NCBI GenBank assembly: GCA_947467625.1
Contig: CANIJN010000002.1
Span: 714 to 64,713 of the forward strand
Origin: Opitutia bacterium
GTDB lineage: Bacteria; Verrucomicrobiota; Verrucomicrobiia; Opitutales; Opitutaceae
Reading direction: 5' to 3'
DNA: 64,000 bases
Made by a program: the position numbers and the translations under genes. This document shows positions 1-37,809 of the stretch, in pieces (the first letter of the stretch is position 1; every line of letters begins with the position of its first letter). The notes under the pieces were generated by a model, which worked only from the letters and a program-made list of their open reading frames with translations, was not told where the DNA came from and did no database searches.

Positions 1-797
1 ACGAGGGTCGGATTACCCCAGAGAATTTCCCAGCCCATCAGTTTGTAGAAAAGATAAATTGCCATCAGCAAAAACGAGCCGCCGGCGATGGTGAAACCGA
101 ACATCGTGCTGAGCGTGAGGGCGTAGGTGGAGAAGCAAAAGATGCCGTTGAAGCCGATGCGCAGGGAGCCGAAGAAACGGTTGTAGTTGGTCTCGCCGGA
201 AAAACGCGCCGGACGGTCGAACGGAATAATGGCCTGTTTGAAACCGACGACGGCGACCATGCCGCGCAGGAAGCCGTGACTCTCTTTGAGCTTCACGACC
301 TCGGCGACGACGCGACGGGCCATGAGGCGGAAATCGCCGGTGTTGGGCGGGATTTTTACATCGGCGATTTTGTTGATCACCTTGTAGCCCGTGGCGGCGA
401 CGAGTTTTTTGATCCACGGTTCGCCGGTGCGGGCGCGGCGTTGCGGGAGGACGACGTCGTAGCCCTCGCGCCATTTAGCGAGCATTTCGTGAATGAGCTC
501 GGGCGGATCCTGGAGATCGACGTCCATGGCGACGACGGCGTCGCCGGAGGAGTATTCGAGGCCGGCGAGGGTGGCCATGGGTTGACCGAAGCGGCGGGAG
601 AAGCGGAGGAGTTTGATGCGCGGATCACTCGCGCGGTACTCCAAAATGACGTCTTCCGTGCGGTCGGGCGAAGGGTCGAGCGAGAAAATGATTTCGTAGT
701 CCTCCGTGACGGCGGAGAGAATCGGACGGAGGCGCCGGAGGAATTCCGGGATATTTTTTTCCTCCTTATAAACGGGGACGACGATGCTGAGGAGCAT
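1..797 (-). CDS. GT2 polyprenol-phosphate glycosyltransferase (ArnC/GtrB/DPM1-like); C-terminus runs off the window
   Basis: Absent from the ORF track because it is open-ended. My translation of the minus strand from ATG at 797..795 gives MLLSIVVPVYKEEKNIPEFLRRL...YEIIFSLDPSPDRTEDV...VAMDVDLQDPPELIHEML...GDFRLMARRVV..., then a hydrophobic tail (TMFGFTIAGGSFLLMAIYLFYKL). This is collinear with the ArnC/GtrB pattern (VIPVYNE ... DADLQNPPE ... C-terminal TM helices). Confidence 0.85.
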   Translation of the reverse strand, partial: MLLSIVVPVYKEEKNIPEFLRRLRPILSAVTEDYEIIFSLDPSPDRTEDVILEYRASDPRIKLLRFSRRFGQPMATLAGLEYSSGDAVVAMDVDLQDPPELIHEMLAKWREGYDVVLPQRRARTGEPWIKKLVAATGYKVINKIADVKIPPNTGDFRLMARRVVAEVVKLKESHGFLRGMVAVVGFKQAIIPFDRPARFSGETNYNRFFGSLRIGFNGIFCFSTYALTLSTMFGFTIAGGSFLLMAIYLFYKLMGWEILWGNPTL

Positions 798-909
798 GTT
801 TCGGAGAAGGGCGATCGAAGATGAGCGAAGAGAGAGGGGAGATGAGACTCCGGAGGAGGAACCACTAATGGACACTAATCAGCACTAAATTTTGGAGGGC
901 ATCGCCGAC

Positions 910-3774
910 CTACCAGCGGATGCCGAGGGCAAGGAGACGAGCAACGAGCGCGCCGCGGAAGCGGGTGCGGCGCGCGTAGGCATCAATCGTCGTCCAGTCG
1001 TCCTGGCGCGGGCCGTGGAAGCGCGTGCGAATCCGCGCCATCTCTTCGGCGCCGACGGTGTGGATGGCCTGGGAGGTTTTTTGCTCGGAGTGTACGCGGA
1101 AGGCACCGAGGAAATACGGGACACGCACCAGTTTGCAGCCGGCTTGTTGAAAGCGGGCGAGGAGATCCCAATCGAGGGCGAATTGGAAACTGGGGTCGAT
1201 GCCGCCGGCGAGATCCCAGGCGCGTTTGCGCCAGAAGAGGGTTTCTTGCGGGACGTAGTCGATCCACTCGAGGACGTGAGGATCGTGGCGCGGCATGATC
1301 CAGCGGCCGACGTCGCCGTCGTTTTCATCGATGATAATGCGGTGGCCGTAGATCACATCCACCTCGGGGTGAGCGGCGAAATATTCGGCGACGTAGCGGA
1401 GCACGCCGGGGCCGATGAGGTCGTCCGAGTTGAGCCAAGCCATGACATCATCAGGGCCGAGCTCGGGGGTGAGGCGGGCGAAACCGCGGCGGATGGCATC
1501 GGCTTGGCCGGCGTCGCGGGCAGATTCCCAAGCGTGCAAGCGGGCGGCTTGGCGGGCGATGATGGCGGGACTCTGGTCTTTTGAGCCACCGTCCTGCACG
1601 ACGTAAAGGAGGTGTGGATACTGTTGATCGAGGATGCTCAGCATCGTCCGCTCGAGATATTTTTCCTGTCCGTAGCTGGGCGTGACGAGGGCGATCTGGG
1701 GGAGCGATCGGGTCGGGAGGCCGGCGGCTGGGGACTGGGCTGCTAGGCGTGGGGCGGGAAGGCGGTCCCAGACGAGCGGTTTGGGCGCGTGGTGGCGCAG
1801 GATGCCGATCTGCATCCAGTATTTCTCGACGACGCGGGTGAAGAGCCAGGCCTCGCAGGGCCGCCACCACTGTGCGCGCGCGTGGGCGGTGGCGGCCAGC
1901 CAGAGCTTGCGCAGGAGGGCAGTGGAGTCGGTGGAGTCGGCGGCGAGTTGCTGGATGACGGTTTCGCGCTCGGCGCAAGCGCGGTTCAGCACTTGAAGAA
2001 CGGCTTCCTTTTCCGCGAGGAGACGGCCGAAGCGTTTGGCTTGTTCGAGTGAACCGTGGCCGGCGGCGTAATTTTCGAGCGACTGGTCGCGCTCGGCGAG
2101 CAGGGCCTTCAGGGCGACGATCTCGCGGTCGCGGAGAATGACGAGGGCCTCGATGTTGCGGATGTGGACGGCGCGGTCCGCGAGGGCCTGGGTGGCGAGC
2201 GCGATATCGGGGGGGAGGAGCGTCAGCGTGGCTTTGAACTGCGTCTGGTCAGCGAGGGCGGAGGCGTGGCGGGCGGTGAGGTCAGCGAGCGTGTGCTCGA
2301 GCTGTTTGCTGTGCGCGTGCTGTTGAAAAATGAGGCGCTCGCGTTCGTCGCAGACGGATTTGAGGGCGATGATTTCGGCGTCCTTCGCGTGAATTTCGCG
2401 TTCTTTGGAATCGATTTCGCGTTCTTTGGAATCGATCTCGCGCTCCTTCTCGGCGATCGAGAGTTCCTTTTCGAGAATGGCGACGTCCTTTTCGCGGTCG
2501 AAGGCGGTGAGCGCTTCGAGTTTGTGCTGGCGTGCGAGATGTTCGGTGCGAAGGGAACGGTAACGTGAGGACGACGCGGCGATGAGTTCGCGGGTGGAGG
2601 CCGGGAGGCGTTCGATCTGACGCACGGCGAAAGGCGCGTCGGGGTACGCGAGGGTGTCGTCGAGCGCGGTGATGGCATCCGCGATCGTGATACCGCTGAG
2701 GCAAGGCGCAGCGGCGTCGCCGAAGGCGCAATCCCAGCCGCAACCGAAGCACGGGAGCGGCTGCACCAAAACGAGGCCGCGGCGGGCGGTCGGCGTGAAG
2801 CGCGGCCAGGTGCCGCCGCCGAAAAAGGCGACGACGGGGATGTCGAGGGCGGCGGCGAGGTGCATGGCGCCGGTATCGTTGCCGAGGAAAAGCGCTGAGT
2901 CGGCGATGAGTGCGGCGAGGGTCGGGAGCGAGTCCTCACGGCCGAGCCAGAGAGCAGGTGCGACGAGTGCTGCGGTGGACGTGCAGCTCGTGGCGGCGAG
3001 GAACTCGAGGTGAGTGCGCTCGTGCTCGTGGCCGACGAGCAGCGTGGGGAGGCCGTGGCGTTCCTGCGCATGGCGGAGGGTGGCGGCGAACCGGTCGGCG
3101 GGCCACGTTTTCAGCGTGACGTTGGCGAAGCCGGCGGCGGCACAGAGGACATACCGACCGGGCGCGAGGCCCTGCGCGGACAGCAACGCGCGGGCGGTGG
3201 CCCGGGCGGCGCTGGGCAGCGTGAAGGTTGCGGGCACCGGGATCGCCGGGCGGCCCAGCAACGCGGAGGCGAGGCGAAGGTTGCGCTGCGCATCGGGCTC
3301 GTCGGTGGGGACGGCGACTTGCTCGGGGAACACCTGAGTGGCGTCGAGTTGCAGCTGGACGCGGAGCTGGGTGGAGAAAAATTCATCGTTGGCATCGGCC
3401 CCGAGGGCGACGTGCCGCGCGGCAGGGGCGACGGCGGCGAGGGCGACCTCGAGCCAGTTCCGACGCGAGGTGGCGGCGGCCACGAGGTCGGGGTGTAGAG
3501 ACTCCACGAGGCGGCGGAGCCGGGTGAGTTCGACGTCGTCGGCTGCGGGGCCTTGGGCGAAAGGGTCGAACGTGGTGGGAAAAAACTCGATCCCGGGAGC
3601 GAGCAACGCAGCGAGATCGACGTAAGGCCGGCGGATGAGGACACACAGACGCGTGGCCGGCCAAGCGGCCCGCAACGCTCCCAGCGCGGGCGCGAATAGG
3701 ACGAGGTCGCCGAGGGTGTCGAGCTTGAGGAGGAGGGCGACTGCGGGAGCGACGTGGGGGGCGGGCGCGGTCAT
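910..3774 (-). CDS. Three-module glycosyltransferase: N-terminal GT9 (heptosyltransferase-type), ~230-aa coiled coil, C-terminal GT2
   Basis: ORF track, 954 aa. The N-terminus (LLLKLDTLGDLVLFAPALGALRAAWP ... LGNDTGAMHLAAALDIPVVAFFGGG) matches the GT9 signature. Residues ~395-625 are heptad-rich in E/K/L/A, including EKEREIDSKEREIDSKEREIHAKDAEI. Residues ~690-954 (IALVTPSYGQEKYLERTMLSILDQQYP ... WLNSDDLI) match GT2. The start overlaps the upstream gene's stop (ATGA at 3771-3774). Confidence 0.8.
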   Translation of the reverse strand: MTAPAPHVAPAVALLLKLDTLGDLVLFAPALGALRAAWPATRLCVLIRRPYVDLAALLAPGIEFFPTTFDPFAQGPAADDVELTRLRRLVESLHPDLVAAATSRRNWLEVALAAVAPAARHVALGADANDEFFSTQLRVQLQLDATQVFPEQVAVPTDEPDAQRNLRLASALLGRPAIPVPATFTLPSAARATARALLSAQGLAPGRYVLCAAAGFANVTLKTWPADRFAATLRHAQERHGLPTLLVGHEHERTHLEFLAATSCTSTAALVAPALWLGREDSLPTLAALIADSALFLGNDTGAMHLAAALDIPVVAFFGGGTWPRFTPTARRGLVLVQPLPCFGCGWDCAFGDAAAPCLSGITIADAITALDDTLAYPDAPFAVRQIERLPASTRELIAASSSRYRSLRTEHLARQHKLEALTAFDREKDVAILEKELSIAEKEREIDSKEREIDSKEREIHAKDAEIIALKSVCDERERLIFQQHAHSKQLEHTLADLTARHASALADQTQFKATLTLLPPDIALATQALADRAVHIRNIEALVILRDREIVALKALLAERDQSLENYAAGHGSLEQAKRFGRLLAEKEAVLQVLNRACAERETVIQQLAADSTDSTALLRKLWLAATAHARAQWWRPCEAWLFTRVVEKYWMQIGILRHHAPKPLVWDRLPAPRLAAQSPAAGLPTRSLPQIALVTPSYGQEKYLERTMLSILDQQYPHLLYVVQDGGSKDQSPAIIARQAARLHAWESARDAGQADAIRRGFARLTPELGPDDVMAWLNSDDLIGPGVLRYVAEYFAAHPEVDVIYGHRIIIDENDGDVGRWIMPRHDPHVLEWIDYVPQETLFWRKRAWDLAGGIDPSFQFALDWDLLARFQQAGCKLVRVPYFLGAFRVHSEQKTSQAIHTVGAEEMARIRTRFHGPRQDDWTTIDAYARRTRFRGALVARLLALGIRW
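2387..2449 (-). repeat. Three imperfect in-frame copies of a 21-bp unit inside the coiled-coil region
   Basis: The plus strand reads (cgt)gaatttcgcgttctttg / gaatcgatttcgcgttctttg / gaatcgatctcgcgctccttc. On the coding strand this encodes KEREI(D/H)(S/A) heptads. Confidence 0.85.
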
Positions 3775-6700
3775 GGCACGGGCGCGAGATCGACCTGCAG
3801 CAGTCGCGCCGAGCGGCGGCGGGTGTCTGGGGCCGGCAGAGGGAAATCCGCCGGAGCGTCGAAGCGGAGCATCTGCGGTGTCACCGAAGCGGGGATACGG
3901 ATGATCACGGTGGCGTAGGCCCCCGCCGCGAGCGTGTGGCTCGTGAAGACGGGGACGGGGGCGACGGGCCCATCGGCGCTGGAGACGAGTTGCGAGCGCA
4001 GGACGGTGGTGGGCGCGCCCGACCAGTCGGGGATTTCGAACCGCAACGTGACGTCGTGGGCGAGCGTGTTGGCGGGGAGGTGAAGGGTGGCTTCGCGGGC
4101 CATCCAGCCGTCTTGGTCGATGCCTTGAGCGGCGAGTCGCAGGGCACCGGCGGTGGCGAAGTCGAAGGTGCGGCTGGGGAGGGTCGGGAGAATTTCGAGA
4201 AGCGCGAGTTTGGCGCCCACGGGTCGGTCATCCTCATCGGGGAGGGGGGCTGTCGCGGAGGGACGGAGGGAAATCCGCGTGGGGCCGGAGACGGTGGCAA
4301 CGGGCAGGAGCCAATCGAAGGTGCCGGTGGCGGCGGGGAGTTCGAAAGCGCGACCGTTGACGTTGACCTGCAGCGTGCCGCGGCCGAGGGGCTGGCCGGG
4401 GAGTTCGGGGACGTAGCCGCGCAAGCGGAGACTGGAACCGGCGGGCGCGGCGCCGAGAATGAATTCGCTCTGCGGGGAGAGCCAGCCGTCTTCGAAGATA
4501 CCGGAGAATTCGAGGCCGCGGGCGTGGACGAGGTCGGCGGGGAAATTTCTGAGCCGCGTGGGGCGCGCGAGCGCGGCGACTTCGGCGGGGGAGAGTGCGG
4601 AGATGTCGCGGCCGTAGGCGACGAGCAGACGCGAGTCGAGGGGGATGCGGGTGTTGTAGAGCGACTGGAGGCCGCGGCGTTTGTAGGGGAACTGGACGGG
4701 CGTCTCGGCGAGGTCGAGGGCGATGTAGGCGGCGCCGTCCTGCCAGATCGGGCGGAGCGGGCCGATGATGCGGTTGACGGCGCCGTGACCGACGAAACCG
4801 AGGGGGACGTCTTTTTGGGCGAGAATGCGCGGGCCCTCAGTGGCGGCGAGTACGCGTGAGCGCTCGGGCGTCCACGAAGTGTGTTTGCTGCCCATGAACG
4901 ATTTGGAGAGTGCGACGCGGAGGTAGATTTCCTCGCTGGGTTGTTCGACGCGGATCAGCAAAAAGCGCCCCAGTCCGGTGATGTCCTGTTGGCCGGTGTG
5001 GGGGTCCGCCTCTTGTTGATACATACCGATGCGGTGGCGGTCGCCGAGGTAGTAATGGTTGCCGCGCCCGGAGTGGACGAAGACGAGGTGGTTGGCCGCG
5101 GCGGGCGAGGCGGCGGGGACGGCCTTGAAGTAAACGGTGGGCTTGGCCGTGGGGTCGGGCAGGCGGAATTTATTAAAGAGACCGAGCTGCTCGCTGAGGA
5201 GAAGGTAAGCGTCGTGGGGGTCGCGCTTCGCGAAGTTCAGCGCGGGCGCGCGAAATTCGGTGTTAAAGAGCCTGGGCGTGAGCATCGAATCCGCGTCACG
5301 CTGCGCGAGGATAGCGCGGGTGCGGACGAGATCCTGGAACTGGGGATGCAGGCTGACGAGTTGGTCGCCGAGCCGCTCGAACTCGATCGGGGCGATCTGC
5401 TGGAAGTAATCGCGGGCCAGAAAACGCAGGTCGGTGCCGCGAAATTCGACGGCGGCGAGTTTGGCGGCGACGAGGTTGCTGATGTCGCTCAACAGCCGCG
5501 TCTGGGGCGCGACGGCAGGTGCCGACGCGCCGAGAATGGAGGCGAGTTTGGCCTCGGTGAAGCCGCCGCCTTTCTCGCCCTGCGAGACTTGGGTATAGTA
5601 AAGGGCGCTCGGTGCACACAGCACCGCGAGCAGGAGCACGGCGGCGGGCGCCGTCCAGCGGGCGCGGGGTAGAGCGAGACACGCGCAGGCCAGGGCGGCG
5701 GCGAGTGCGGGCTGCATGAACATCGCGGTCTTGTAGAGACCGAAGTCATTGCCGCCGGTGTAGAGTTTCACGCACATCGCGAGGAGTACGATGAGCAGCG
5801 CGGTCATCGGTGCCGGGGTGGCTCGGAGCAGCGTTTCGCGGCAGGAAACGACGATGGCGGTGACGAGACAGATGAACCCACCGAGAATGGCGAGGGAGGT
5901 AAACGGCTCGGCGAACGTGACGGCGAGCGGCATGAACCCAAAGAGGTTGGCCAGGCCGGTCGGAATGAGGAAATACGGAAACAGCGAGAGCGAGAGATCG
6001 ACGGTGCGGAAACCGGAGCCAAATTGATAGGAGATCGTGAAGAGATAGGAGAGGACGTTGTGGCGGAGGAGGACGAGGACGCCGACGATGCCATACATTA
6101 CGAGTCCGAGGCGCGCGGTGGGGAAAGCCCGCGTACGCACCCACTCGATGGCCCCGACCAGCAAGGTGGTTAAGACCGCAAAGGCGGTGACCTCGGGGTA
6201 AAAAACGGCGAAGGCGGCTCCGACGATCGAGAGGACCGCGATATGTGGGACCAGCCGGCGGCGGGTCGCGGGGAGGCGGGCCGTGAGCAGCGCGGTCGCG
6301 GTCAGCAGCAGGGCGACGCCACCGACCTGCGCGATGAGTTGGTAGAGCATGCCCAACATGAACAGCGGGCTGACGGCGAGGAGCGCGGCACCCAGCAAGG
6401 CGTGACGACGCCAGCGGCCGCGATGTAGCGTGAGGCCGGCGGCGGCAAACAGTTGCACGAGCCCAAAGCCCATGATCACGGGCATGAAGATACCCAGAGT
6501 CCTGATACCGGTCAGCGCGCTGATCCACGCGAGCACATGTTCGCTGCCGAAACGCATCAGGCCGGGCACGTGCATGAACCAATAATATTGCGACCAGTCG
6601 CGACCGGCTAGTTCCTCACTCGTCGGGACGCGCCAGAAGCCAAAATCTTTGAAGCGCTCGGCGGCGAAGCAGTAATTAACAAAGTCGTCGTTGACGTAGC

Positions 6701-7052
6701 TCAGCCAATTGAAACCGAAACGCAGTGCGGGCCAGCCGGTCCAGAGCAGCACAAACGCAGCCAGCGCGAAAAACGGCGCGAGGGCGCGGGCCGGGAAGAC
6801 GGGACGGCGCCACAGGAAAATGCCGAGGGAGCCCAGCGCGAGTCCCCACGTCATCGGCCCAGCGAAGGCGCGGACGGGGAGTCCGGCTTGGTTCAACACC
6901 ATAATAGTGAGCACGGCGGTCGCGAGGCCCGTGGCGGGCGCGAGGAGCCACGAACGCAAAATGCCGCCGCGCCAAGAGCACAGCGCCAGCGTCGCCCGAC
7001 CCAGCACGGTCAGGAAGAGGAAAAAACCGAAGGAAACTGCGAGAGCTGACAT
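3771..7052 (-). CDS. Large polytopic membrane protein with a ~590-aa C-terminal soluble domain; putative GT-C-fold glycosyltransferase
   Basis: ORF track, 1093 aa. The N-terminal ~500 aa has a dozen or more hydrophobic helices. The first extracytoplasmic loop carries SYVNDDFVNY, an acidic DD motif as in GT-C enzymes. The long C-terminal non-membrane domain recalls the EmbC/AftA layout. The CDS is confident; the function is inference. Confidence 0.65.
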   Translation of the reverse strand: MSALAVSFGFFLFLTVLGRATLALCSWRGGILRSWLLAPATGLATAVLTIMVLNQAGLPVRAFAGPMTWGLALGSLGIFLWRRPVFPARALAPFFALAAFVLLWTGWPALRFGFNWLSYVNDDFVNYCFAAERFKDFGFWRVPTSEELAGRDWSQYYWFMHVPGLMRFGSEHVLAWISALTGIRTLGIFMPVIMGFGLVQLFAAAGLTLHRGRWRRHALLGAALLAVSPLFMLGMLYQLIAQVGGVALLLTATALLTARLPATRRRLVPHIAVLSIVGAAFAVFYPEVTAFAVLTTLLVGAIEWVRTRAFPTARLGLVMYGIVGVLVLLRHNVLSYLFTISYQFGSGFRTVDLSLSLFPYFLIPTGLANLFGFMPLAVTFAEPFTSLAILGGFICLVTAIVVSCRETLLRATPAPMTALLIVLLAMCVKLYTGGNDFGLYKTAMFMQPALAAALACACLALPRARWTAPAAVLLLAVLCAPSALYYTQVSQGEKGGGFTEAKLASILGASAPAVAPQTRLLSDISNLVAAKLAAVEFRGTDLRFLARDYFQQIAPIEFERLGDQLVSLHPQFQDLVRTRAILAQRDADSMLTPRLFNTEFRAPALNFAKRDPHDAYLLLSEQLGLFNKFRLPDPTAKPTVYFKAVPAASPAAANHLVFVHSGRGNHYYLGDRHRIGMYQQEADPHTGQQDITGLGRFLLIRVEQPSEEIYLRVALSKSFMGSKHTSWTPERSRVLAATEGPRILAQKDVPLGFVGHGAVNRIIGPLRPIWQDGAAYIALDLAETPVQFPYKRRGLQSLYNTRIPLDSRLLVAYGRDISALSPAEVAALARPTRLRNFPADLVHARGLEFSGIFEDGWLSPQSEFILGAAPAGSSLRLRGYVPELPGQPLGRGTLQVNVNGRAFELPAATGTFDWLLPVATVSGPTRISLRPSATAPLPDEDDRPVGAKLALLEILPTLPSRTFDFATAGALRLAAQGIDQDGWMAREATLHLPANTLAHDVTLRFEIPDWSGAPTTVLRSQLVSSADGPVAPVPVFTSHTLAAGAYATVIIRIPASVTPQMLRFDAPADFPLPAPDTRRRSARLLQVDLAPVP

Positions 7053-7073
7053 GGAGAGGACGAGCTACGGAGT

Positions 7074-8186
7074 TCAGGGACCGGGTGCAACAGCGGATCG
7101 CGCGGCGGCGCGGACGAAGGCGGCGCAGGCGTCGAACGCACGATCGGCGGCGAGGTCGAGTGCCGCGCGGGATACGCCGGCCTGAGACGAGAGCGACTGG
7201 AGGCTGCGCGTCACGGTGGCGGCATCGGCGTCGGTGGCGAGCAGCGGGCAGGCGAGCTCGTGGGCGGCGGCGCGGAGTTTTTCGTTGGTGGCGAGGATCG
7301 CGATTTTCGAGCCCGCCCAAGCCCCCGCGAGCGCGGCGTGAAAACGTGCGGTCACGAGCCATGCGCCACTCGGCCAACGGGACAACGCCGTTGTGAGCGA
7401 CTCGGCCGTTGCGAGCGACTCGGCTGGGGAGGGCAAGCGATCGGGGATAGCCAGCGCCCAGCGGGCTCGGTCCGCGAGCGGGAGCGCATGGTGGAGGGCG
7501 CGCTCGGCACCGGGGAGCTCGCGGGATTCCTGGGCGAGCCAGACGCGCTCGGTGATGGCGAGGCCGGGCACCGAGGCTTGAGCTGCGGTGAGGAAGGCGG
7601 CTTGGCCGGGCCACGCGCCGTAGTCGAAGTTGGCCACGAGGGTCAGGCGCCCCGCGCTGGCGGCGGGCGGAGGGGTTTCGCGGAAAAACAGATGAGCGAG
7701 GTCGGCGGCGCTGGCGATGGGCGGAGGCGCGGGGAGTGCGGCGAGGCGGTCGGCCGAGGCGGCATCGCGCGTCCAGATGGCCGCGGCTTGGGCGCAGATG
7801 CGCTGCACATCGGGAGCGGCGAGCTCCGCGCTCGTCTGCACGCCGACGCCGAGGAAATACATCGGCTTGTGGGCGCGCGCGCAGAGGGCCGCTTCGGACA
7901 CGAGGTGGTCCACGAACCAGCGCGACAGCGCGCTCTGAAACGGTGAACCGCCGAGGCCCAGCCACGCAGCGCATTCGGCCACGCAACGTGCGCGGGTCGG
8001 CTCATCGCAAGGCAGCCACGTAATCGCCGGGAAGCGTCGACGCAGCGGATCGAGGGCGAACGGCACGCAGCACGTGAAGGTGGCCTGCGGCGCGAGCGTG
8101 CGCATCGCAGCGAGGAAACCCGCGAGCATGAAGTCGTCGCCCAGATTGCCCGCTCCGTAAAAATGGTGCCCGAGATGAATGCGCAC
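7074..8186 (-). CDS. Polysaccharide pyruvyl transferase family protein (CsaB/WcaK-like)
   Basis: GTG start. MRIHLGHHFYGAGNLGDDFMLAGFL carries the N-terminal G-x-G-N-x-GD motif, and TARFHAALAGAWAGSKIAIL lies near the C-terminus; both resemble PF04230 members. There are 21 nt to the next gene downstream and 25 nt from the tpsB stop. Confidence 0.7.
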   Translation of the reverse strand: MRIHLGHHFYGAGNLGDDFMLAGFLAAMRTLAPQATFTCCVPFALDPLRRRFPAITWLPCDEPTRARCVAECAAWLGLGGSPFQSALSRWFVDHLVSEAALCARAHKPMYFLGVGVQTSAELAAPDVQRICAQAAAIWTRDAASADRLAALPAPPPIASAADLAHLFFRETPPPAASAGRLTLVANFDYGAWPGQAAFLTAAQASVPGLAITERVWLAQESRELPGAERALHHALPLADRARWALAIPDRLPSPAESLATAESLTTALSRWPSGAWLVTARFHAALAGAWAGSKIAILATNEKLRAAAHELACPLLATDADAATVTRSLQSLSSQAGVSRAALDLAADRAFDACAAFVRAAARSAVAPGP

Positions 8187-8211: not shown

Positions 8212-9861
8212 CTAAAATGCGAGCACGACTTTCACGTGCCCGCGGGAATGCGTCGGCGAGGCGTAGGCGAGATGCGTGATTTGCCAGCCGTAGTCCGCAC
8301 TTACGTTCAGATTGACCGGTAGGCTCAGGCGCACGCCTACGCCGGTGCTCGCGAGCGGGGTGAAGATCATGTCATTGAGGTCGCGGTGCCGGTAAAAAAC
8401 CTGGGCGGCATCGTAAAAAAAGACGAAGCGGGTCTCGGTCGCCGCGCGGCCCTTAGGTAAAAACGGCAGGGTATGGCGTATCGTCGGCGTGGTGACATCG
8501 TTGCTGAAGACGAACCCTTGATCGCCCGAGTTGATGCGCTCGTCGAAGCCGCGCACGGTCGAAGAACCGCCGATGGAGAGTTGCTCGCTGCCCGGGACAT
8601 TGGCCGTGGAGAGTTTCGCGAAGGCACGGGAAAAGAACGTCCAGCCACGATCCAGATTGAGGAGCCTTTGGACGGACAGGGTGCCCGTCGCATAAGTCGC
8701 GCGCGTGTTGTACCGTGAGATGGAAAAAACCTTGTCGGTGTTGCGGGAGTTCACGTTACCGGGGCTGAGATCGAGGCCGAGACCGAACAGCCACGCGCCG
8801 CGTGAATCCCGGCGCACCATGGAAAATGAGTTCGTCAACTGAAACGTGTCAGTCGTGTTGCTGGTCAGGGTCGTGCCGCCGTAAGCAAGGTTATTGTTCC
8901 CCTGCTTAAAATCGATCCCCGTGGAGAATTCGATGGGGCTCTCGCCATCGCGGATGGGGAGATTGTAGCGCAGGTTGGCCAGCACGTTTTGCCCCTTCTG
9001 AGTGAAGACACCCCCGGCTCCGAAGGTCGGCTTCACCTTGAGGTAGCCGCCGCTAAATTGGAGATGATGGCGCCAAGGAAGCGGGATCCGATAATCCAGC
9101 GAGTGACTTTGAAAGACGGCCTGATGGTCGGTGGTAGTATATTGGTAAGTCCCTTGGTGATCTCGGCCCCACAGGTTTCCAAACTGCAGCGCTCCCGTAT
9201 AGTGTCGGGTGCCTAAAACCTGATTGCCCGAATCGTCGTAGGATGCCGTGAAGCGCACCGGAATCCGCTCGGCGACGCCCACGATGAGATCCGCCTTGCC
9301 GGGTTGATTCGGCAGATCGTTGATGAGCACCTGGACCTGCCGAAAGGGATTGGTGTTGGCCCATTTGACCGCGTCATCCAACGTCGAGAGCCGGACCTCG
9401 TCGCCGGTTTTGATGCCCAGTTTCTCCTGCAAGAGTTTACTGCTAAACCAACGATTACCCTTGAACTGAAACTCGTTGTAGCGTCCGACCACGACCGCCA
9501 AACGGAAAATCCCGGTCGAAATATCCTGATTGGGCGGGATGACCTTCACGATCAACCGATCATTCTCGCGCGCGTGTTGGGCAATCGTGTTGGCCAACGT
9601 ATTCAAGAGTTCGTTCGTAATCGGCTTACCGATAAACGCGGCCATTTTCCCCTGGAAAGCTGCCCCAGCCAGCACCGCCACATCCTGCACGAAGACCGCA
9701 CTGTCACCACCGCTGTCCGCCGGCAGCGCGGCCGCTTTCACATCGGTATCGGCGATGATGAGCTTCTTCAGCATGAAAACGAGGGGGGCACTCGGCTCGG
9801 CGGCAAACGAAAGGGCCGACGAGGCAAGGCAGACCAGCGCAAAAATGAAACGAGTCAGCAT
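8212..9861 (-). CDS. TpsB outer-membrane transporter (ShlB/FhaC/HecB family hemolysin secretion/activation protein)
   Basis: The ORF track gives 8212..10053. I prefer the start at M65 (ATG 9861), which yields a classical signal peptide, MLTRFIFALVCLASSALSFA|AEP. This is followed by a POTRA-like region (FQFKGNRWFSSKLLQEKLGIKTGDEVRLSTLDDAVKWANTNPF) and a beta-barrel ending in aromatic ...VKVVLAF. The gene is divergent from a TpsA gene. Confidence 0.85.
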   Translation of the reverse strand: MLTRFIFALVCLASSALSFAAEPSAPLVFMLKKLIIADTDVKAAALPADSGGDSAVFVQDVAVLAGAAFQGKMAAFIGKPITNELLNTLANTIAQHARENDRLIVKVIPPNQDISTGIFRLAVVVGRYNEFQFKGNRWFSSKLLQEKLGIKTGDEVRLSTLDDAVKWANTNPFRQVQVLINDLPNQPGKADLIVGVAERIPVRFTASYDDSGNQVLGTRHYTGALQFGNLWGRDHQGTYQYTTTDHQAVFQSHSLDYRIPLPWRHHLQFSGGYLKVKPTFGAGGVFTQKGQNVLANLRYNLPIRDGESPIEFSTGIDFKQGNNNLAYGGTTLTSNTTDTFQLTNSFSMVRRDSRGAWLFGLGLDLSPGNVNSRNTDKVFSISRYNTRATYATGTLSVQRLLNLDRGWTFFSRAFAKLSTANVPGSEQLSIGGSSTVRGFDERINSGDQGFVFSNDVTTPTIRHTLPFLPKGRAATETRFVFFYDAAQVFYRHRDLNDMIFTPLASTGVGVRLSLPVNLNVSADYGWQITHLAYASPTHSRGHVKVVLAF

Positions 9862-10256
9862 GATTGATAAAGGGTGGGGATGCCTGAGTTCCGGAAACTT
9901 GACAAGAGTTCCTCTCGGAAACCTGCATTGGGCTGTGCCATTGAACGTCATGTCAGAGGTTTGCTTTAGGCCCGGCAGGTGGTAGGGCATCAACCGGCCA
10001 CCGGTCGGTTCGACACCAAGAGCTGACTCAAGCAACCAAAGAGGGGTAGGCATCCGCTGACTTCATTATCACAAAGCCCGCGAGGGAGAGTCGCAGTGCG
10101 GCGACGGCCTATGCGCAACGTCACGCGAGGACTCTCCAGAACGCAGACCACCGCGGACTAAAAAATAAACCATGCGACCTTGCGTTCACGTGGCGCCAAA
10201 TGTAGATCCAACGAAAGGTTATCTCATAGAGGAGCCGTCTCGCGGGGGAGTTTCGA

Positions 10257-10335
10257 GGGAGCCCGACAGGCCGGCCGCCCTAAAAAAGGCAACGGGGGCG
10301 CTCGCGCAGCCCATCGCCCGCAAGCGGGCTCCCAC
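10257..10335 (+). repeat. Degenerate copy of the REP/MITE-like palindromic element (copy A)
   Basis: The right arm atcgcccgcaagcgggctcccac (10313-10335) matches aatcgcccgcaagcaggctcctac of copies B and C. The left arm gggagcccgacaggccggc (10257-10275) is a decayed inverted partner. Confidence 0.4.
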
Positions 10336-10631
10336 ATCCAAGCAGGTTAAGCGGATGTTCAAACTACCCAAAATCGGACAATCCCGCCCTCGAACCATCG
10401 ACGGTGGTTTTGTGGTCAAAATGGTCCAAAGTATCAACCACGCCCAAACCGCGCCTCACCCGGAATCGTTCGCCCGACTATCACGGCAACGACGAAAAAC
10501 CCTTCACTGGGGAAAAATCACCATTTCAAATCAGGCAATGTGCGGCATCGCGCAGCGCTCTTCAGTTTTAAATCATTATCAAAAACTCACAAAAGCATCC
10601 AGGATAATAGCCTAGGTCCGAATGAGCCATT

Positions 10632-10647
10632 TGGCACGCGCCCTGCA
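10632..10647 (+). promoter_or_regulatory. Candidate sigma-54 (-24/-12) promoter upstream of tpsA
   Basis: TGGCACGcgccCTGCA compared with the consensus TGGCACG-N4-TTGCW. GG is at 10633-34 and GC at 10645-46, which is the correct 12-nt register. It lies ~200 nt upstream of the tpsA ATG. rpoN is encoded in this window. It is the only good match I found among the TGGCAC occurrences. Confidence 0.4.
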
Positions 10648-10845
10648 ACTAACCAGCCAAGGTTTTCCTTTTTAAATTTTTGAGCACATCGCCCATTCCA
10701 TATCGAATTACGAGGCACCCACGGCCACTTCGGCCAATGGTTTCTCGCGCTGGAATTTGTGCTTGCAACACTTTTGGGGTCTACCATTGCTTAGCCCTGA
10801 ATGGCGCAGTCTAGCTTCCGTTAAAACAACATTAGTCTTCTATCC

Positions 10846-13800
10846 ATGAACAAAAAACTGAATCCCAACTTCTCTCTGAAGAAGTTACTATTGTCCGCCC
10901 TCGTTGCTGGACCGCTGGCTATTTTGCCCGCTCCACTCTGGGCGTTGCCAAGCACAGCTGCTACCAACCTCACCACCTCATCGACTTCGATCACGTATTC
11001 GGGCGTGCTTGATGGTGTCGCTGCGGGCGCGCTGAATATCACGGCTCCGGATAAATCCATCCTCACGTGGCAGTCTTTTAACATCAACCAAGCGGACACG
11101 ATCAATTACCTGCTCCCGTCCACCACCGCTTCGGTGCTGAACAATGTGGCAGGTGGTGCCGCTTCCACCATCGCTGGCGCGATCAATTCGAACGGTAACG
11201 TTTATGTGTTGAATCCGGCCGGTATCGTCATTTCTCAAACGGCTCAGATCATCACCGGCGGCTTTTACGCCAGCACGGTTGCTGAACCCAGCTCGTTCTT
11301 CACCACCACTGGAACCCTGAATTTCACGGGTAGCGCCACGACGGACGTCGTCGTTCAGTCCGACGGTCAGGTTACCGCGGGCCAGATCGCCTCCATCCAA
11401 GCACTCGGCACCGGTAACAAGATTACCCTCGCCGGTCGCAGCGTCCTCGTCGAAGGTGCGAATCTCTTCGGTAATGTGACGTTGCAGTCTGCTGCCACCG
11501 GTAAGGTCAATCTGGCTCAGACCAGCGACACGGTTGGCCGCCCTCAAGCGGGTGGAGCAGTTAATATCAGTCAGGCCGCCGGCTCTGGCGGCAATCTGAC
11601 GATTGTCAGCAACGGCGGGACGGTCTCCCTGACGGGTGCACCGGTCGCAGTCAGCAATAACTCAGATACTGCTGCTGGTCCGGCCGTCAGCGTCAATGCG
11701 ACGGGTGGACTTGTCGTCGGCGCGGGCGGTCTCGGTGGTAGCGGCTATGCCCCTAGCTCCAATATCGCTCTGTCGATCACGGCACCGCTGATCCGTCAAA
11801 GTCTCAACTCGACGACCACCGCTTCGACCTCGGTCGGAACCACGGCTGTTGGTTTCGCAACCACTAATGCGCAGGGACAAATCACGGGCTACTCGCTCAC
11901 CACCAATGGAGCTCCTTCGATCGGCAGTGGCTACATTTCCAACGTCACCAGCAGCGTGATTGGAAACAATGTCACGATCACGGTGCCTCAGGTCGGCTTC
12001 GCCACCAATGTGGCCGGCGCGCTCAGCGTTAATACCACCGGATCAACCTCCAATGGTCCTGTTACGCAAGGTGCTGGACTCTCGACCAGTCGTTTGACCG
12101 TTACCGGTGCAGCGACGATCACCACCGCGACCACCGCGACCACCGCCGCCGCCGCTGACGTGACCTTGGGCAACGCAGCTCTATCCACGCTCAATCTGCC
12201 TCTCGTCGGAACCGTCAACGTGATCGAAGCCGATGGCTTTGCCCTCGGCAACGCGAAGGTTCTCCCAAATGCGGCCAACGCTGTCACCCTGCGCGCACAA
12301 GCTGGAAATATTTCCATGAGCGGCACGTCCAAGGTTGAAATCGTTCCTTCTGTCCTTGTTCCTGCTCCGAATACCCTGCTCACCGCTAACACGGGTGGCG
12401 TCACCTATAGCAATATCGGAGATCTGAAGATCACGACCTTGAGCACCACGACGTCCTCATCTGGCGTCACGGCCCTTACCTCGACGGGAAATGTCACGAT
12501 TCCAGCCTTCTCGTCTCCCTCGCTCACCATCACCACGACCGGTGGTACGATCACCACGGGTAATCTGACGACGACCTCTGGGGCCGCCAATCAGGTGTCC
12601 GCGACGCTGACCGCCAATGGCAATATCTCGGTCGGTACCGTTAACACTTCGGGTAAAATCGTCATCAACTCCACCGGTGGCACGATCACCCTCGGTCAAG
12701 CTGCCAATGGTTTCATGACCACCGGCGCAGGTCTCGACCTTAAGGCTGTGGGCGACATCACCATGACCAATGCCACGGCTCTCGTTACCTCCGGCACAGA
12801 TGCGAAGATCGCGTCCACGACCGGTAACGTTACGCTCACGGGCGGCTTCGCTGGCGGCGGTGCGATCACTGCGGCTAATAACATCACCATCGGCGCCCCT
12901 GGCACCGGTAAACCAAGCGTGAATGCGAATACCGCTTTGGACACGTCCTCGATTCTCTCGAAGGTCACCGGCGGCACCACTAGCAATCCTGCTGGTCTTT
13001 ACGCTCCCAATAGCCAAGTCCCGATGGCGGTGACGACGACTGGTACTGCCCCGGGCACCACGGCCACCGGATATTTCACGACCAATGCGTCGGGTCAAAT
13101 TAGCGGCACGGTTATCACCGAGGTCGGAGCCGGATACACGTTTACTAACTCAGGAACCACTGTTACTAACCCGAATGTGACCTTCACCGCCAACGCAGCC
13201 CCCACCAACTCGGTGGTTGCGAATACGGCGCTCACCCTCACCGCCACCGCTGGTACCGTCGCTGTCGCGAGCCCGATCGTGGGAACCGGCGCGGTTACTA
13301 TCGTATCCGGAGGGGCCCTTACGGTTCCCTCTATCACGGCCCCGAACGTCTCCTTGGAATCCACGACAGGATCCATCGCGCAGACTGCCGCGACCGCAAT
13401 CACCGCTTCTGGGAACACGACGCTCAAAGCAGCCACGAGCGTCTCGTTGGATCTCGCCGGCAACGACTTCAATAATGTTGTCCTCACTTCGAGTCCGTCA
13501 GGCGTGACCCTCAAGGACGCCAATGCGCTCACCTTGGCCAATGGCACTAATGCGGCCGGCAATGTGACCATCACCTCTGGTGCTGGCCTGACCGGTTTTA
13601 CGAACCAGAACATCCCCGTTCCATCTCCGAATGTCGCCGTGACCTTCGGAGCTGCTAGCGTCTCCGCCGGCTCGGTTACTTCCGTGGCTCTGACTACGAC
13701 GGGCACCGGCTATGCGGCAAATGCGACGATCCCAGTGACCTTTTCGGCACCTCCAGCGCAATCGGCTGCAGGACTTGTGATCGCCAGCTCGGCGAGCACC

Positions 13801-19215: not shown

Positions 19216-19391
19216 ATATACCTGCGGCTCGGAAAGGCTTGTCGGCCGGACAGGAAGATTAAGAGAAAAAGGAAAGAGAAAGATTACTGGGCGCGCTCAG
19301 ACCGCTTAGACTTTGACGCCGTCACGCACGATGACGCGGGCAGCCCCCTTTTTTCTTGGTAATCCAGCGGCTTGCCGCTCTATCAAAGCGA

Positions 19392-21591: not shown

Positions 21592-21716
21592 GCGCTGGTC
21601 TTAACGCCCCGATTGCTCGCTCTGTAAAGCGCAATCCCCGGCGCGAACTCGGGTGCGTGCGATTGGCCGGTTATTGTCTTGAGCGGGCAGGGTGGTTGGC
21701 CTTGCTGGCGATCACT

Positions 21717-25291: not shown

Positions 25292-25304
25292 GACGTGGCC
25301 AGGC

Positions 25305-37261: not shown

Positions 37262-37272
37262 GTTTCACGCCC

Positions 37273-37806: not shown

Positions 37807-37809
37807 GCC

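What the first reader, a model, noticed from the sequence alone, without database searches (positions are those of the whole stretch)
910..3774. GT9 and GT2 catalytic modules separated by a ~230-residue coiled coil: possible chain-length ruler enzyme
Seen: one 954-aa ORF contains a heptosyltransferase-type GT9 domain, a long heptad-rich segment (residues ~395-625, E/K/L/A/R rich) and a GT2 domain with WLNSDD.

Established: in ABC-transporter-dependent O-antigen systems, WbdD (E. coli O9a) and WbbB (Klebsiella O12 / Raoultella) use a coiled coil to space a chain-terminating activity from the polymerase, which sets glycan length. The cognate Wzt proteins carry a C-terminal domain that recognises the capped terminus.

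Inference: this window also encodes wzm and a wzt with a ~190-aa C-terminal extension (19392-21591), so a ruler-type mechanism is plausible. I do not recall a GT9 domain described as one of the two ruler-separated modules.
Basis: partly seen in the sequence, partly recalled or inferred. Interest (0 to 1): 0.65.

Follow-up and report, generated by a model that had tools for sequence, protein, structure and literature searches.

The report
GT9–helical stalk–GT2 glycan ruler enzyme
A conserved Opitutaceae enzyme holds two sugar-adding domains apart on a helical stalk whose length changes in exact seven-residue steps between near-identical strains, so it most likely works as a naturally adjustable ruler for surface-glycan length.

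Summary
ORF 910..3774 (-) encodes 954 aa: a GT9 domain (1-380), an all-helical region (392-650) and a GT2 domain (691-954, WLNSDD at 780-785). It is not a fusion artefact, because more than 117 full-length orthologs and at least 586 genome hits, all Opitutales among those inspected, share the architecture.

The ruler reading gains independent support but is not proven.
- In a sister clade, wzm and wzt (with Wzt_C) lie directly upstream. In the window's clade they lie 12-16 kb away in a conserved supercluster.
- The C-terminal helices+GT2 module occurs elsewhere behind methyltransferases.
- The GT9+stalk module occurs alone or fused to pyruvyl- or sulfotransferases, the modular logic of WbdD and WbbB.

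New here: all length variation sits in one heptad tract encoded by 21-bp repeats. Its length is 13+7n residues in 117 of 117 orthologs, and it differs by whole heptads between alleles at least 90% identical.

Caveats:
- The stalk has conserved breaks (P521-P522, G572) and may partly fold back.
- No enzyme activity was tested.
- There is no sequence homology to WbdD or WbbB.

Verdict: a new variant of a known kind. Interest 0.62.

The parts
910..3774 (-). Whole gene: GT9 - helical stalk - GT2 protein, 954 aa
   Evidence: ORF list; Pfam; 117 aligned full-length orthologs
2635..3774 (-). GT9 (GT-B fold) domain, residues 1-380. Conserved D19/G22/D23, K222-T-W224 and N299-D-T-G...H305, plus a Cys cluster C342/C345/C349/C358
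   Evidence: Pfam PF01075; invariant columns; alignment to WaaF and 3tov; Foldseek to 1psw, 3tov and WaaC, TM-score on the target 0.75-0.81
1939..2601 (-). Helical stalk, residues 392-612: helices 392-454, 464-519, 522-569, 574-612, with 3.5-residue periodicity of conserved hydrophobic positions
   Evidence: AF2 secondary structure; periodicity against shuffles; weak SMC hit in NCBIfam
2377..2481 (-). Variable heptad tract, residues 432-466 (KEREIDS repeats). The 21-bp tandem repeat is at 2393..2442. This tract holds all family length variation
   Evidence: TRF 21-bp period, 2.4 copies, 96% matches; DNA; lengths 13+7n in 117/117 orthologs; whole-heptad differences within clusters at least 90% identical
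2209..2214 (-). Conserved P521-P522 helix break, a possible hairpin turn. A second break is at G572
   Evidence: P521 and D523 nearly invariant; AF2 break; length co-variation of the flanking helices; antidiagonal MI enrichment
1705..1926 (-). Trp-rich, basic junction, residues 617-690 (helix 617-650 plus linker). Highly conserved; candidate membrane-interface or GT2-docking element
   Evidence: Invariant W643, M654, G657, W669, D670; the most interface-prone exposed segment on the Wimley-White scale; it travels with the GT2 module in other architectures
913..1704 (-). GT2 (GT-A fold) domain, residues 691-954, with D728 and N782-S-D-D785
   Evidence: Pfam PF00535; Foldseek to K4CP, WrtF, 6p61 and SpsA; profile against PDB
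3771..7052 (-). Translationally coupled 1093-aa membrane protein: GT-C-like transmembrane domain plus C-terminal CBM-like beta-sandwich domains. No Pfam family. Always next to the GT9-stalk-GT2 gene
   Evidence: No Pfam or NCBIfam hit; AF2 pLDDT 91, pTM 0.88; Foldseek to AftA 8if8, DPY19, ALG9, CBM22 and malectin-like domains; synteny in both locus types
7074..8186 (-). Polysaccharide pyruvyl-transferase-like protein (CsaB-like), same operon
   Evidence: PF04230 E 4.8e-5, below cut-off; NCBIfam CsaB 2e-11, below cut-off; 40% identical over its full length to the N-terminal domain of a PyrT-GT9-stalk fusion, P0456, E 8e-63
1..797 (-). GtrB/ArnC-type polyprenyl-phosphate glycosyltransferase, cut by the window edge, immediately downstream
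   Evidence: Translation; PF00535; the Opitutus sp. ER46 ortholog matches Synechocystis GtrB 5ekp at E 2e-82 and ArnC at E 4e-46
8212..10053 (-). ShlB/FhaC-type TpsB transporter, first gene of the same-strand block in type A loci
   Evidence: Pfam ShlB and POTRA_2; synteny
10846..16638 (+). 1930-aa TpsA-like repeat protein (DUF5649), embedded between the GT operon and wzt
   Evidence: Pfam; orthologs carry the TPS domain PF05860
19392..20744 (+). Wzt ABC ATPase with C-terminal Wzt_C carbohydrate-binding domain
   Evidence: Pfam ABC_tran and Wzt_C, 1e-19; orthologs 69-99% identical lie on the same contigs as the GT9-stalk-GT2 gene
20737..21591 (-). Wzm ABC-2 permease, convergent with wzt
   Evidence: Pfam ABC2_membrane; ORFs
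24176..26795 (-). DegT-family aminotransferase (24176..25291) and methyltransferase-GT2 protein (25305..26795), part of the conserved wzm-side block
   Evidence: Pfam; same order in Opitutus sp. ER46

Best explanation
The protein is a single-polypeptide terminator-ruler-polymerase for an ABC-transporter-dependent surface glycan of Opitutaceae. It is analogous to WbbB and WbdD, not homologous to them.

Proposed mechanism, all steps inferred:
1. The C-terminal module (Trp-rich junction plus GT2) sits at the membrane and extends an undecaprenyl-diphosphate-linked chain, alone or with other glycosyltransferases of the cluster.
2. The N-terminal GT9 domain is held away from it on a helical stalk. 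It can add a chain-ending sugar only to chains long enough to reach it. The sugar is probably heptose from ADP-heptose, possibly then pyruvylated by the co-operonic CsaB-like enzyme.
3. The capped chain is recognised by the Wzt C-terminal domain and exported by Wzm/Wzt.
4. In the periplasm, the coupled GT-C-like enzyme decorates it with a sugar supplied by the GtrB-like synthase.

Stalk length, and with it the predicted modal chain length, is set largely by a 21-bp-repeat-encoded heptad tract that expands and contracts by whole heptads, about 1 nm each.

Shown: the architecture, its conservation, the helical and heptad character, repeat polymorphism, synteny and module shuffling. Inferred: the division of labour, the donor sugar, the oligomeric state and the effect on chain length.
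For: Architecture and fold:
- Domains and fold are established.
- GT9 catalytic and donor-binding motifs are invariant.
- The stalk is helical with significant heptad periodicity.

Link to the ABC transporter:
- In about 20 type B loci the order is wzm - wzt(Wzt_C) - methyltransferase - this gene - GT-C-like - GtrB-like, all on one strand.
- Type A loci, including the window, share a conserved supercluster with wzt and wzm 12-16 kb away.
- Wzt orthologs occur on the same 18-24 kb contigs as this gene.

Module shuffling (exhaustive HMMER search):
- The last helices plus the Trp-rich junction plus GT2 occur at 50-59% identity behind FkbM-type or class I methyltransferases.
- GT9 plus stalk occurs alone at 500-714 aa, or behind a sulfotransferase or a pyruvyl transferase.
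- This mirrors the variable module distribution described for K. pneumoniae O3, O4, O7 and O12 terminators, where the coiled coil is called a hallmark and the terminator sits at its distal end (PMC11231755; PMC11127046).
- The window's pyruvyl-transferase-like gene is 40% identical to the domain fused to GT9 in P0456.
- Terminal pyruvate is a known chain terminator in K. pneumoniae O1b (PMC10629545).

Stalk length variation:
- It is confined to one tract, in steps of 7 residues, in 117 of 117 orthologs.
- It also differs among alleles at least 90% identical, and 21-bp DNA arrays underlie it.
- Insertions on one side of the stalk with no compensation elsewhere fit an in-register parallel oligomer or a free helix. 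Either way they must move GT9 relative to the rest of the protein.
- In WbdD, engineered coil insertions and deletions shift the modal chain length (PMC5082667).
Against: - No activity, glycan structure or oligomeric state is known.
- There is no sequence similarity to WbdD or WbbB.
- Only one glycosyltransferase sits on each side of the stalk, so a heteropolymer would need further enzymes.
- In the window's clade the ABC transporter is not adjacent. A two-partner-secretion pair lies between them.
- The stalk has conserved breaks. H1b and H2 change length together (54/51, 61/55, 34/29, 34/12), and there is weak antidiagonal coevolution around residues 521 and 614. Part of the stalk may therefore be a folded helical bundle, and in the commonest orthologs (tract of 13-20 residues) the free spacer could be only 5-6 nm.
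- The variable tract has one hydrophobic residue per heptad, is 57% charged and has low pLDDT.
- Repeat-unit slippage alone would give multiples of 7 without any selection.
- Copy numbers in short-read assemblies can be wrong for long arrays.
- No clear membrane anchor was found.
- Other candidate capping enzymes (methyltransferases) sit in the same clusters.
Confidence: 0.55

Rival explanations
1. Scaffold or dual-transferase enzyme. GT9 and GT2 each add ordinary residues of the same glycan (adaptor, repeat unit or core). The helical region only oligomerises or tethers the enzyme in a multi-enzyme complex, and heptad-number variation is neutral slippage with no effect on chain length.
For: - Multi-glycosyltransferase polymerases are common, and relatives of the GT2 module are also fused to extra GT4 or GT2 modules.
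- There are hints that much of the helical region folds back as hairpins.
- The variable tract is weakly hydrophobic with low pLDDT.
- Multiples of 7 follow automatically from a 21-bp repeat unit.
- Separate methyltransferases in the clusters could be the true terminators.
Against: - Alternating catalysis by two sites held 5-25 nm apart on a stalk of variable length is hard to reconcile with polymerisation.
- GT9+stalk proteins lacking any second glycosyltransferase are common, and they are fused to capping-type enzymes (pyruvyl- and sulfotransferases).
- The GT2 module is found behind methyltransferases, the classical terminator layout.
- All 117 orthologs keep the heptad phase even where the repeats have diverged in sequence.
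Confidence: 0.25
2. Protein glycosyltransferase for the neighbouring two-partner-secretion exoprotein. GT9 (with GT2) glycosylates the 1930-aa TpsA-like repeat protein in the cytoplasm, as TibC/AAH heptosylate autotransporters and HMW1C glycosylates HMW1.
For: - In type A loci the gene lies in a same-strand block headed by a ShlB-type TpsB, with a TPS/DUF5649 exoprotein divergent upstream. This layout is conserved from 45% to 99% identity.
- GT9-related enzymes do heptosylate adhesins (own knowledge of TibC/AAH).
Against: - Neither the single sequence nor the family profile hits TibC, and TibC is not among the top 50 Foldseek matches. The best matches are the LPS enzymes WaaF and WaaC and the family-9 transferase 3tov.
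- Type B loci have no TPS genes within 10 kb and have wzm-wzt instead.
- The constant partners are a GT-C-like enzyme and a GtrB-like synthase, which points to lipid-linked glycan chemistry.
- This rival gives no role to a stalk of variable length.
Confidence: 0.08
3. En-bloc glycoprotein pathway. The ruler enzyme builds a capped lipid-linked glycan as in the main model, but the exported chain is transferred to the TpsA exoprotein rather than to lipid A-core, as in the ABC-transporter-dependent S-layer glycan pathways of Gram-positive bacteria.
For: - The TPS pair is embedded between the GT operon and wzt in every type A locus examined, and tpsA is followed about 100 bp later by wzt on the same strand in ER46 and in a JGI contig.
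- A transmembrane+TPR protein (17011..19077) and a GT-C-like protein are present.
Against: - It rests on synteny alone.
- Type B loci lack the TPS genes.
- No oligosaccharyltransferase has been identified.
- This changes the acceptor, not the role of the ORF.
Confidence: 0.1

Closest known systems
WbbB (Klebsiella pneumoniae O12 / Raoultella terrigena)
   Same: One polypeptide with an N-terminal terminating glycosyltransferase, a central coiled coil and C-terminal polymerising glycosyltransferase module(s). It works with Wzm/Wzt whose Wzt carries a terminus-binding C-terminal domain (PMC11231755).
   Different: WbbB's terminator is a GT99 beta-Kdo transferase and its polymerase has two glycosyltransferase modules. 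Here the distal module is GT9 and there is a single GT2. No sequence similarity was detected. Here the stalk carries a polymorphic heptad repeat tract and conserved kinks.
K. pneumoniae O7 ORF6 and WbdD (E. coli O9a / K. pneumoniae O3, O5)
   Same: A terminator sits at the distal end of a coiled coil, with the polymerase fused (O7) or recruited (WbdD) at the membrane-proximal end. Coil length sets modal chain length (PMC11231755; PMC5082667). Relatives of the GT2 module described here sit behind methyltransferases in the same layout.
   Different: Their terminators are methyltransferase or kinase modules, not glycosyltransferases. WbdD's coil is C-terminal and forms a parallel trimer with a membrane-binding helix. 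Oligomer state and anchor are unknown here.
K. pneumoniae O4 ORF7 (GT137 Kdo transferase with C-terminal coiled coil)
   Same: A terminating glycosyltransferase followed by a coiled coil, with polymerase modules on separate proteins. This matches the stand-alone GT9+stalk proteins found here.
   Different: It belongs to a different glycosyltransferase family and uses a different donor (CMP-Kdo). In the window the stalk is fused to a GT2.
WbbZ / WbmX / CsaB pyruvyltransferases
   Same: WbbZ adds a terminal pyruvate ketal at a glycan's non-reducing end, and in K. pneumoniae O1b this terminates polymerisation (PMC10629545). A CsaB-like gene is co-operonic here and is fused to GT9 in relatives.
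   Different: The O1 system has no coiled-coil ruler. The window's enzyme scores below the curated cut-offs and its substrate is unknown.
LPS heptosyltransferases WaaC and WaaF (GT9)
   Same: Same fold and the same conserved Asp, Lys and D-T-G-x-x-H motifs.
   Different: WaaC and WaaF are about 320-350 aa single-domain core-assembly enzymes. All equivalog scores here fall far below cut-off (59 bits against 185), and this protein adds a stalk and a GT2.
TibC / AAH autotransporter heptosyltransferases
   Same: GT9-related enzymes encoded next to a secreted adhesin gene.
   Different: No detectable sequence or top-ranked structural match. The neighbour here is a TPS exoprotein, and it is absent from type B loci.

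Membership tests
Coiled-coil ruler/terminator proteins of ABC-transporter-dependent glycan assembly (WbdD/WbbB type; a functional class) | Extended coiled-coil region in the protein | tested here: met
   AF2 helices 392-650; heptad periodicity of conserved hydrophobic positions; indels in units of 7. Continuity and extension remain unresolved because of breaks at 521-522 and 572.
Coiled-coil ruler/terminator proteins of ABC-transporter-dependent glycan assembly (WbdD/WbbB type; a functional class) | Genetic linkage to wzm/wzt, with Wzt carrying a C-terminal carbohydrate-binding domain | tested here: met
   Directly upstream in about 20 type B loci. Within 12-16 kb in a conserved supercluster in type A loci, including the window.
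Coiled-coil ruler/terminator proteins of ABC-transporter-dependent glycan assembly (WbdD/WbbB type; a functional class) | Chain-terminating activity at the end of the coil distal from the polymerase | not testable with these tools
   Only architecture is available. GT9 occupies the position held by methyltransferases in relatives and is fused to pyruvyl- or sulfotransferases.
Coiled-coil ruler/terminator proteins of ABC-transporter-dependent glycan assembly (WbdD/WbbB type; a functional class) | Polymerase glycosyltransferase fused or recruited at the membrane-proximal end, with a membrane-binding element | tested here: inconclusive
   A GT2 is present at the C-terminus. There is no transmembrane segment and no strong amphipathic helix. 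The Trp-rich basic segment 619-670 is the most interface-prone stretch.
Coiled-coil ruler/terminator proteins of ABC-transporter-dependent glycan assembly (WbdD/WbbB type; a functional class) | Coil length determines modal chain length | not testable with these tools
   Natural whole-heptad variation provides the material for the test.
WbdD / WbbB protein families (homology) | Detectable sequence similarity to WbdD or WbbB | tested here: not met
   The single sequence and the 117-sequence profile, searched against all PDB chains, hit only GT9 and GT2 enzymes at E <= 1.
CAZy GT9 (heptosyltransferase family) | Pfam PF01075 above gathering score; GT-B fold; conserved N-terminal Asp, Lys-x-W-P and D-T-G-x-x-H donor-binding motifs | tested here: met
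   73.3 bits against a cut-off of 22; Foldseek to 1psw, 3tov and WaaC; D23, K222 and D300-T-G...H305 invariant or nearly so.
CAZy GT9 (heptosyltransferase family) | Use of ADP-heptose as donor | not testable with these tools
   No specific ADP-heptose pathway gene was identified in the loci. The cluster epimerases are generic extended SDRs, with HldD scoring 60 bits against a cut-off of 275.
CAZy GT2 | PF00535 above gathering score; GT-A fold; DXD-type motif | tested here: met
   54.8 bits against a cut-off of 23.3; Foldseek to K4CP, WrtF and SpsA; D784-D785 invariant.
BAHT protein heptosyltransferases (TibC/AAH) | Sequence or structural similarity to TibC, and an adjacent autotransporter substrate | tested here: not met
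   No TibC hit at E <= 10 or E <= 1 with the profile, and none among the top 50 Foldseek matches. The neighbour is a TPS exoprotein, and only in type A loci.

The most novel reading that the evidence does not exclude
The stalk is a repeat-encoded, rapidly evolving molecular ruler. Slippage or recombination in a 21-bp coding repeat adds or removes whole heptads, about 1 nm each. It thereby retunes the length of a capped surface glycan between closely related cells, acting as a contingency-type locus for glycan length. GT9, possibly with a pyruvyl transferase, would be a previously undescribed class of chain terminator, and the glycan may be functionally tied to a two-partner-secretion adhesin embedded in the same cluster.
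Probability: 0.3. Interest if true: 0.8.

Novelty: new variant of a known kind. Interest (0 to 1): 0.62.

Why it matters
Chain-length control by coiled-coil rulers is established for a handful of enterobacterial O antigens, using engineered insertions and deletions.

This family would extend the principle in three ways:
- to a new terminator chemistry (GT9, perhaps with pyruvylation);
- to an environmental phylum (Verrucomicrobiota);
- to a case where nature has already run the heptad insertion/deletion experiment. Stalks differ by 0-19 heptads between species and by 1-7 heptads between alleles at least 90% identical.

That makes a direct test possible: does glycan modal length track heptad number across strains? 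It also raises the question of whether glycan length is under diversifying selection, for example from phage or grazers.

The analysis also defines an uncharacterised but conserved partner set: a GT-C-like enzyme with CBM-like domains and no Pfam family, a GtrB-like synthase and a CsaB-like enzyme. Finally, it shows an unexplained embedding of a two-partner-secretion system inside a glycan cluster.

Tried and rejected
- **Assembly or frameshift fusion: rejected.** All 120 listed homologs carry both domains, and there are at least 586 genome hits.
- **TibC/AAH-type protein heptosyltransferase: rejected.** There is no sequence or top-ranked structural match.
- **Homology to WbdD or WbbB: none found**.
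- **Antiparallel homodimer that would make stalk length irrelevant: judged unlikely.** One-sided heptad insertions would shift every pairing and misalign the conserved P521-P522 and G572 breaks. This is an inference and was not tested.
- **Stalk topology:**
  - The tools do not return AF2 coordinates, so the packing of the helices could not be read from the model.
  - Mutual information with APC correction on 180 sequences gave only weak, uncalibrated antidiagonal enrichment around residues 521 and 614, which is inconclusive.
  - The contiguous deletions in L032, L058 and L038 fit both a hairpin and a straight coil.
- **Membrane anchor:** no transmembrane segment and no standout amphipathic helix on the Eisenberg moment. 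A Wimley-White scan gives only a suggestive Trp-rich stretch.
- **ADP-heptose pathway genes in the clusters:** the epimerases are generic SDRs, not HldD equivalogs.
- **Coiled-coil predictors:** DeepCoil and MARCOIL are not installed, so an alignment-based periodicity test was used instead.
- **Literature:** Hagelueken et al. 2015 (PMC4650267) is not held, so the review PMC5082667 was cited instead. Searches for a GT9 terminator or for Opitutaceae glycans found nothing relevant.
- **ORF between wzm and 22627:** neither candidate ORF matches the 327-aa gene at that position in ER46. Left unresolved.

Full report
**1. Observation**

The ORF at 910..3774 (minus strand) is real and encodes 954 aa. 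Its ATG overlaps the stop codon of the upstream gene by 4 bp.
- Pfam gives Glyco_transf_9 at residues 152-332 (E 2.6e-20) and Glycos_transf_2 at 697-827 (E 1.4e-14).
- NCBIfam gives only sub-threshold heptosyltransferase hits and a weak SMC coiled-coil hit over residues 392-623.
- An AlphaFold2 model built on 117 orthologs (mean pLDDT 84.6, pTM 0.53) has a GT-B domain (1-380), helices 392-454, 464-519, 522-569, 574-612 and 617-650, and a GT-A domain (691-954).
- Foldseek matches the ends to WaaF, WaaC and the family-9 transferase 3tov, and to chondroitin polymerase, WrtF and SpsA.
- Conserved hydrophobic positions in 432-612 show a 3.5-residue period that few shuffles reach: between 2 and 31 of 2000, depending on the helix.

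The centre is therefore helical and heptad-patterned, not globular or disordered. It is interrupted by nearly invariant P521-P522 and G572.

**2. Not an artefact; a large family**

All 120 listed homologs (868-1033 aa) carry both Pfam domains. A scan of one genome per species gave at least 586 confirmed hits. The best 80 are almost all labelled Opitutaceae, Opitutales or Verrucomicrobiota, apart from one bin labelled Actinomycetes. They include cultured Opitutus sp. ER46 and GAS368, Horticoccus sp. and Nibricoccus sp.. The window is 93% identical to an Opitutaceae MAG (L004).

**3. The unexpected feature: a quantised, polymorphic stalk**

Across 117 orthologs every segment has nearly constant length except residues 412-466.
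- That segment takes only the values 13, 20, 27, 34, 41, 48, 55, 62, 69, 76, 104 and 146, which is 13+7n in 117 of 117 sequences.
- The tract consists of tandem heptads (KEREIDS, EKEASIA). In the window it is encoded by a 21-bp repeat at 2393..2442. Orthologs carry arrays of 4.9 and 9.2 copies.
- Within clusters at least 90% identical, full-length members measure 947/954/961, 947/961/968 and 962/990/997/1011 aa.
- Alignment shows the length outside the tract is constant in each cluster (903, 896 and 897 aa), so all the difference is whole heptads.
- The tract is 57% charged, has one Ile per heptad and many i/i+3,4 ion pairs, and has low pLDDT. It may be a weak coiled coil or a stable single helix.
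- Stand-alone GT9+stalk relatives in other lineages carry 21-residue tandem repeats at the same position.

Two caveats apply. A 21-bp unit gives multiples of 7 by itself, and long arrays can be mis-assembled from short reads.

**4. Genomic context**

Two conserved layouts exist.

*Type A* (at least 53% identity, including the window):
- The same-strand block is TpsB(ShlB) - CsaB-like pyruvyl transferase - 1070-1093-aa membrane protein - this gene - GtrB-like GT2.
- In the window, in ER46 and in a JGI contig, this block is followed on the other side by TpsA -> Wzt -> and <- Wzm <- (one gene) <- DegT <- methyltransferase-GT2.
- wzm and wzt are therefore 12-16 kb away in a conserved supercluster.
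- Wzt orthologs (69-99% identity) share contigs of 18-24 kb with the GT9-stalk-GT2 gene.

*Type B* (44-50% identity, about 20 loci):
- The order on one strand is wzm - wzt(Wzt_C) - methyltransferase - this gene - membrane protein - GtrB-like.
- These proteins have much longer first helices, 169-208 residues against 67.

*The constant partners:*
- The membrane protein has no Pfam family but models confidently (pLDDT 91, pTM 0.88). It matches the GT-C enzymes AftA, DPY19 and ALG9, plus CBM22 and malectin-like beta-sandwiches.
- The downstream GT2 is a close homolog of GtrB and ArnC.

This pair fits periplasmic post-export glycosylation as described for other ABC-transporter-dependent glycans (PMC11127046).

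**5. Module shuffling places GT9 in the terminator position**

An exhaustive HMMER search gave 1926 hits at E <= 1e-30.
- The C-terminal module (last stalk helices, Trp-rich junction and GT2; 50-59% identity) also occurs behind FkbM-type or class I methyltransferases, or behind extra GT4/GT2 modules.
- The GT9+stalk module occurs alone (500-714 aa), or behind a sulfotransferase or a polysaccharide pyruvyl transferase.
- The window's separate pyruvyl-transferase-like gene is 40% identical over its full length (E 8e-63) to the domain fused to GT9 in P0456. Its best curated match is CsaB.

This is the modular logic reported for K. pneumoniae O3, O4, O7 and O12. There the coiled coil is called a hallmark, the terminator sits at its distal end, and polymerase modules are variably fused or separate (PMC11231755). 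Terminal pyruvate terminates the K. pneumoniae O1b chain (PMC10629545).

**6. Mechanism proposed (inferred)**

- The GT2 end works at the membrane on the growing lipid-linked chain.
- GT9, at the far end of the stalk, caps chains long enough to reach it. The cap is probably heptose, possibly then pyruvylated.
- Wzt's C-terminal domain recognises the cap, and Wzm/Wzt export the chain.
- The GT-C-like enzyme decorates it using the GtrB product.

One-sided heptad insertions are not compensated anywhere else in the protein. Whatever the fold of the constant part, they must displace GT9 by about 1 nm per heptad. They are easiest to tolerate in an in-register parallel oligomer or a free helix. In WbdD, engineered changes in coil length shift the modal chain length (PMC5082667).

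**7. What weakens the model**

- No activity or glycan structure is known.
- There is no homology to WbdD or WbbB.
- H1b and H2 change length together (54/51, 61/55, 34/29, 34/12).
- Weak, uncalibrated coevolution lies on antidiagonals centred at residues 521 and 614. The constant helices may therefore form hairpins or a bundle, leaving mainly the variable tract as spacer. That would be about 5-6 nm in the commonest orthologs and up to about 25 nm in P0015.
- No clear membrane anchor was found. Only the Trp-rich basic stretch 619-670 stands out.
- Methyltransferases in the clusters are alternative capping enzymes.
- In type A loci a two-partner-secretion pair is embedded in the cluster. This is unexplained and sustains two rivals: direct TpsA glycosylation, disfavoured because there is no TibC-like signal and no TPS genes in type B loci, and en-bloc transfer of the exported glycan to TpsA.

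**8. Comparison and novelty**

Functionally the closest systems are WbbB and K. pneumoniae O7 ORF6 (terminator - coil - polymerase in one chain), with O4 ORF7 and WbdD matching the split versions. Membership of those protein families fails on homology. Membership of GT9 and GT2 is met on score, fold and motifs.

The searched literature describes no GT9 terminator and no naturally repeat-variable ruler. That is an absence in that library, not proof.

I rate this a new variant of a known kind, interest 0.62, with 0.55 confidence in the ruler-terminator model.

Noticed in passing
window 8212..16638: A two-partner-secretion pair is embedded between the glycosyltransferase operon and wzt: a ShlB-type TpsB on the minus strand and a 1930-aa DUF5649 TpsA-like protein on the plus strand. 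The layout is conserved in ER46 and in a JGI contig, where tpsA is followed about 100 bp later by wzt. Why a TPS system sits inside a glycan cluster is unexplained.
   Followed up: partly
window 3771..7052: A 1093-aa membrane protein with no Pfam or NCBIfam family, annotated 'hypothetical' in every source. It models confidently (pLDDT 91) as a GT-C-like transmembrane domain plus tandem CBM-like beta-sandwiches, with AftA, DPY19 and ALG9 as the best fold matches. It is a candidate for a new GT-C family.
   Followed up: partly
window 19356..21591: wzt (plus strand) and wzm (minus strand) converge and overlap by 8 bp (20737..20744) instead of forming the usual wzm-wzt operon. The same convergent layout is found in ER46. 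Type B loci have the usual co-directional wzm-wzt.
   Followed up: partly
window 17011..19077: A 688-aa protein with about 400 residues of transmembrane helices and then TPR repeats lies between tpsA and wzt. ER46 lacks it at that position, while Horticoccus has a 47% identical copy upstream of its TpsB gene. It may be a PMT/TMTC-like glycosyltransferase; this was not tested.
   Followed up: no
P0450 residues ~440-560; P0456 residues ~760-860: Stand-alone GT9+stalk proteins from other lineages carry near-perfect 21-residue (three-heptad) tandem repeats (SEADRSARQVQVKELTALLQE) right after the GT9 domain. Repeat-built stalks therefore recur independently.
   Followed up: partly
window 1..8000 compared with the rest: G+C is 0.62-0.69 across the GT operon (peak 0.689 at 2001-4000) against 0.56-0.61 over most of the remaining window. 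This could reflect codon or amino-acid usage, or horizontal origin.
   Followed up: no
L001 13842..22847; L002 12706..22709: Downstream of the GtrB-like gene, ER46 and Horticoccus encode several large proteins (718, 499, 559, 801 and 952 aa) with no Pfam hit, plus an extended-SDR epimerase, a short-chain dehydrogenase and a GtrA-family protein. This region lies beyond the window's edge.
   Followed up: no
L050 2540..4663: The type B cluster includes E1 alpha and beta subunits of a 2-oxoacid dehydrogenase/transketolase-like enzyme and three separate methyltransferases among the glycan genes. This suggests an unusual sugar substituent.
   Followed up: no
window 21588..22565: Overlapping ORFs lie on both strands between wzm and the Cys/Met PLP enzyme gene: plus-strand 302 aa with a DxD-like IDADALF motif, and minus-strand 247 aa. 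Neither has a Pfam hit and neither matches the 327-aa gene at this position in ER46.
   Followed up: partly
window 31750..39734: A cluster of a multihaem cytochrome c7-like protein, a 1140-aa Fe-S protein, an NrfD-like membrane subunit and cytochrome c proteins. It looks like an alternative-complex-III-type respiratory module and is unrelated to the finding.
   Followed up: no
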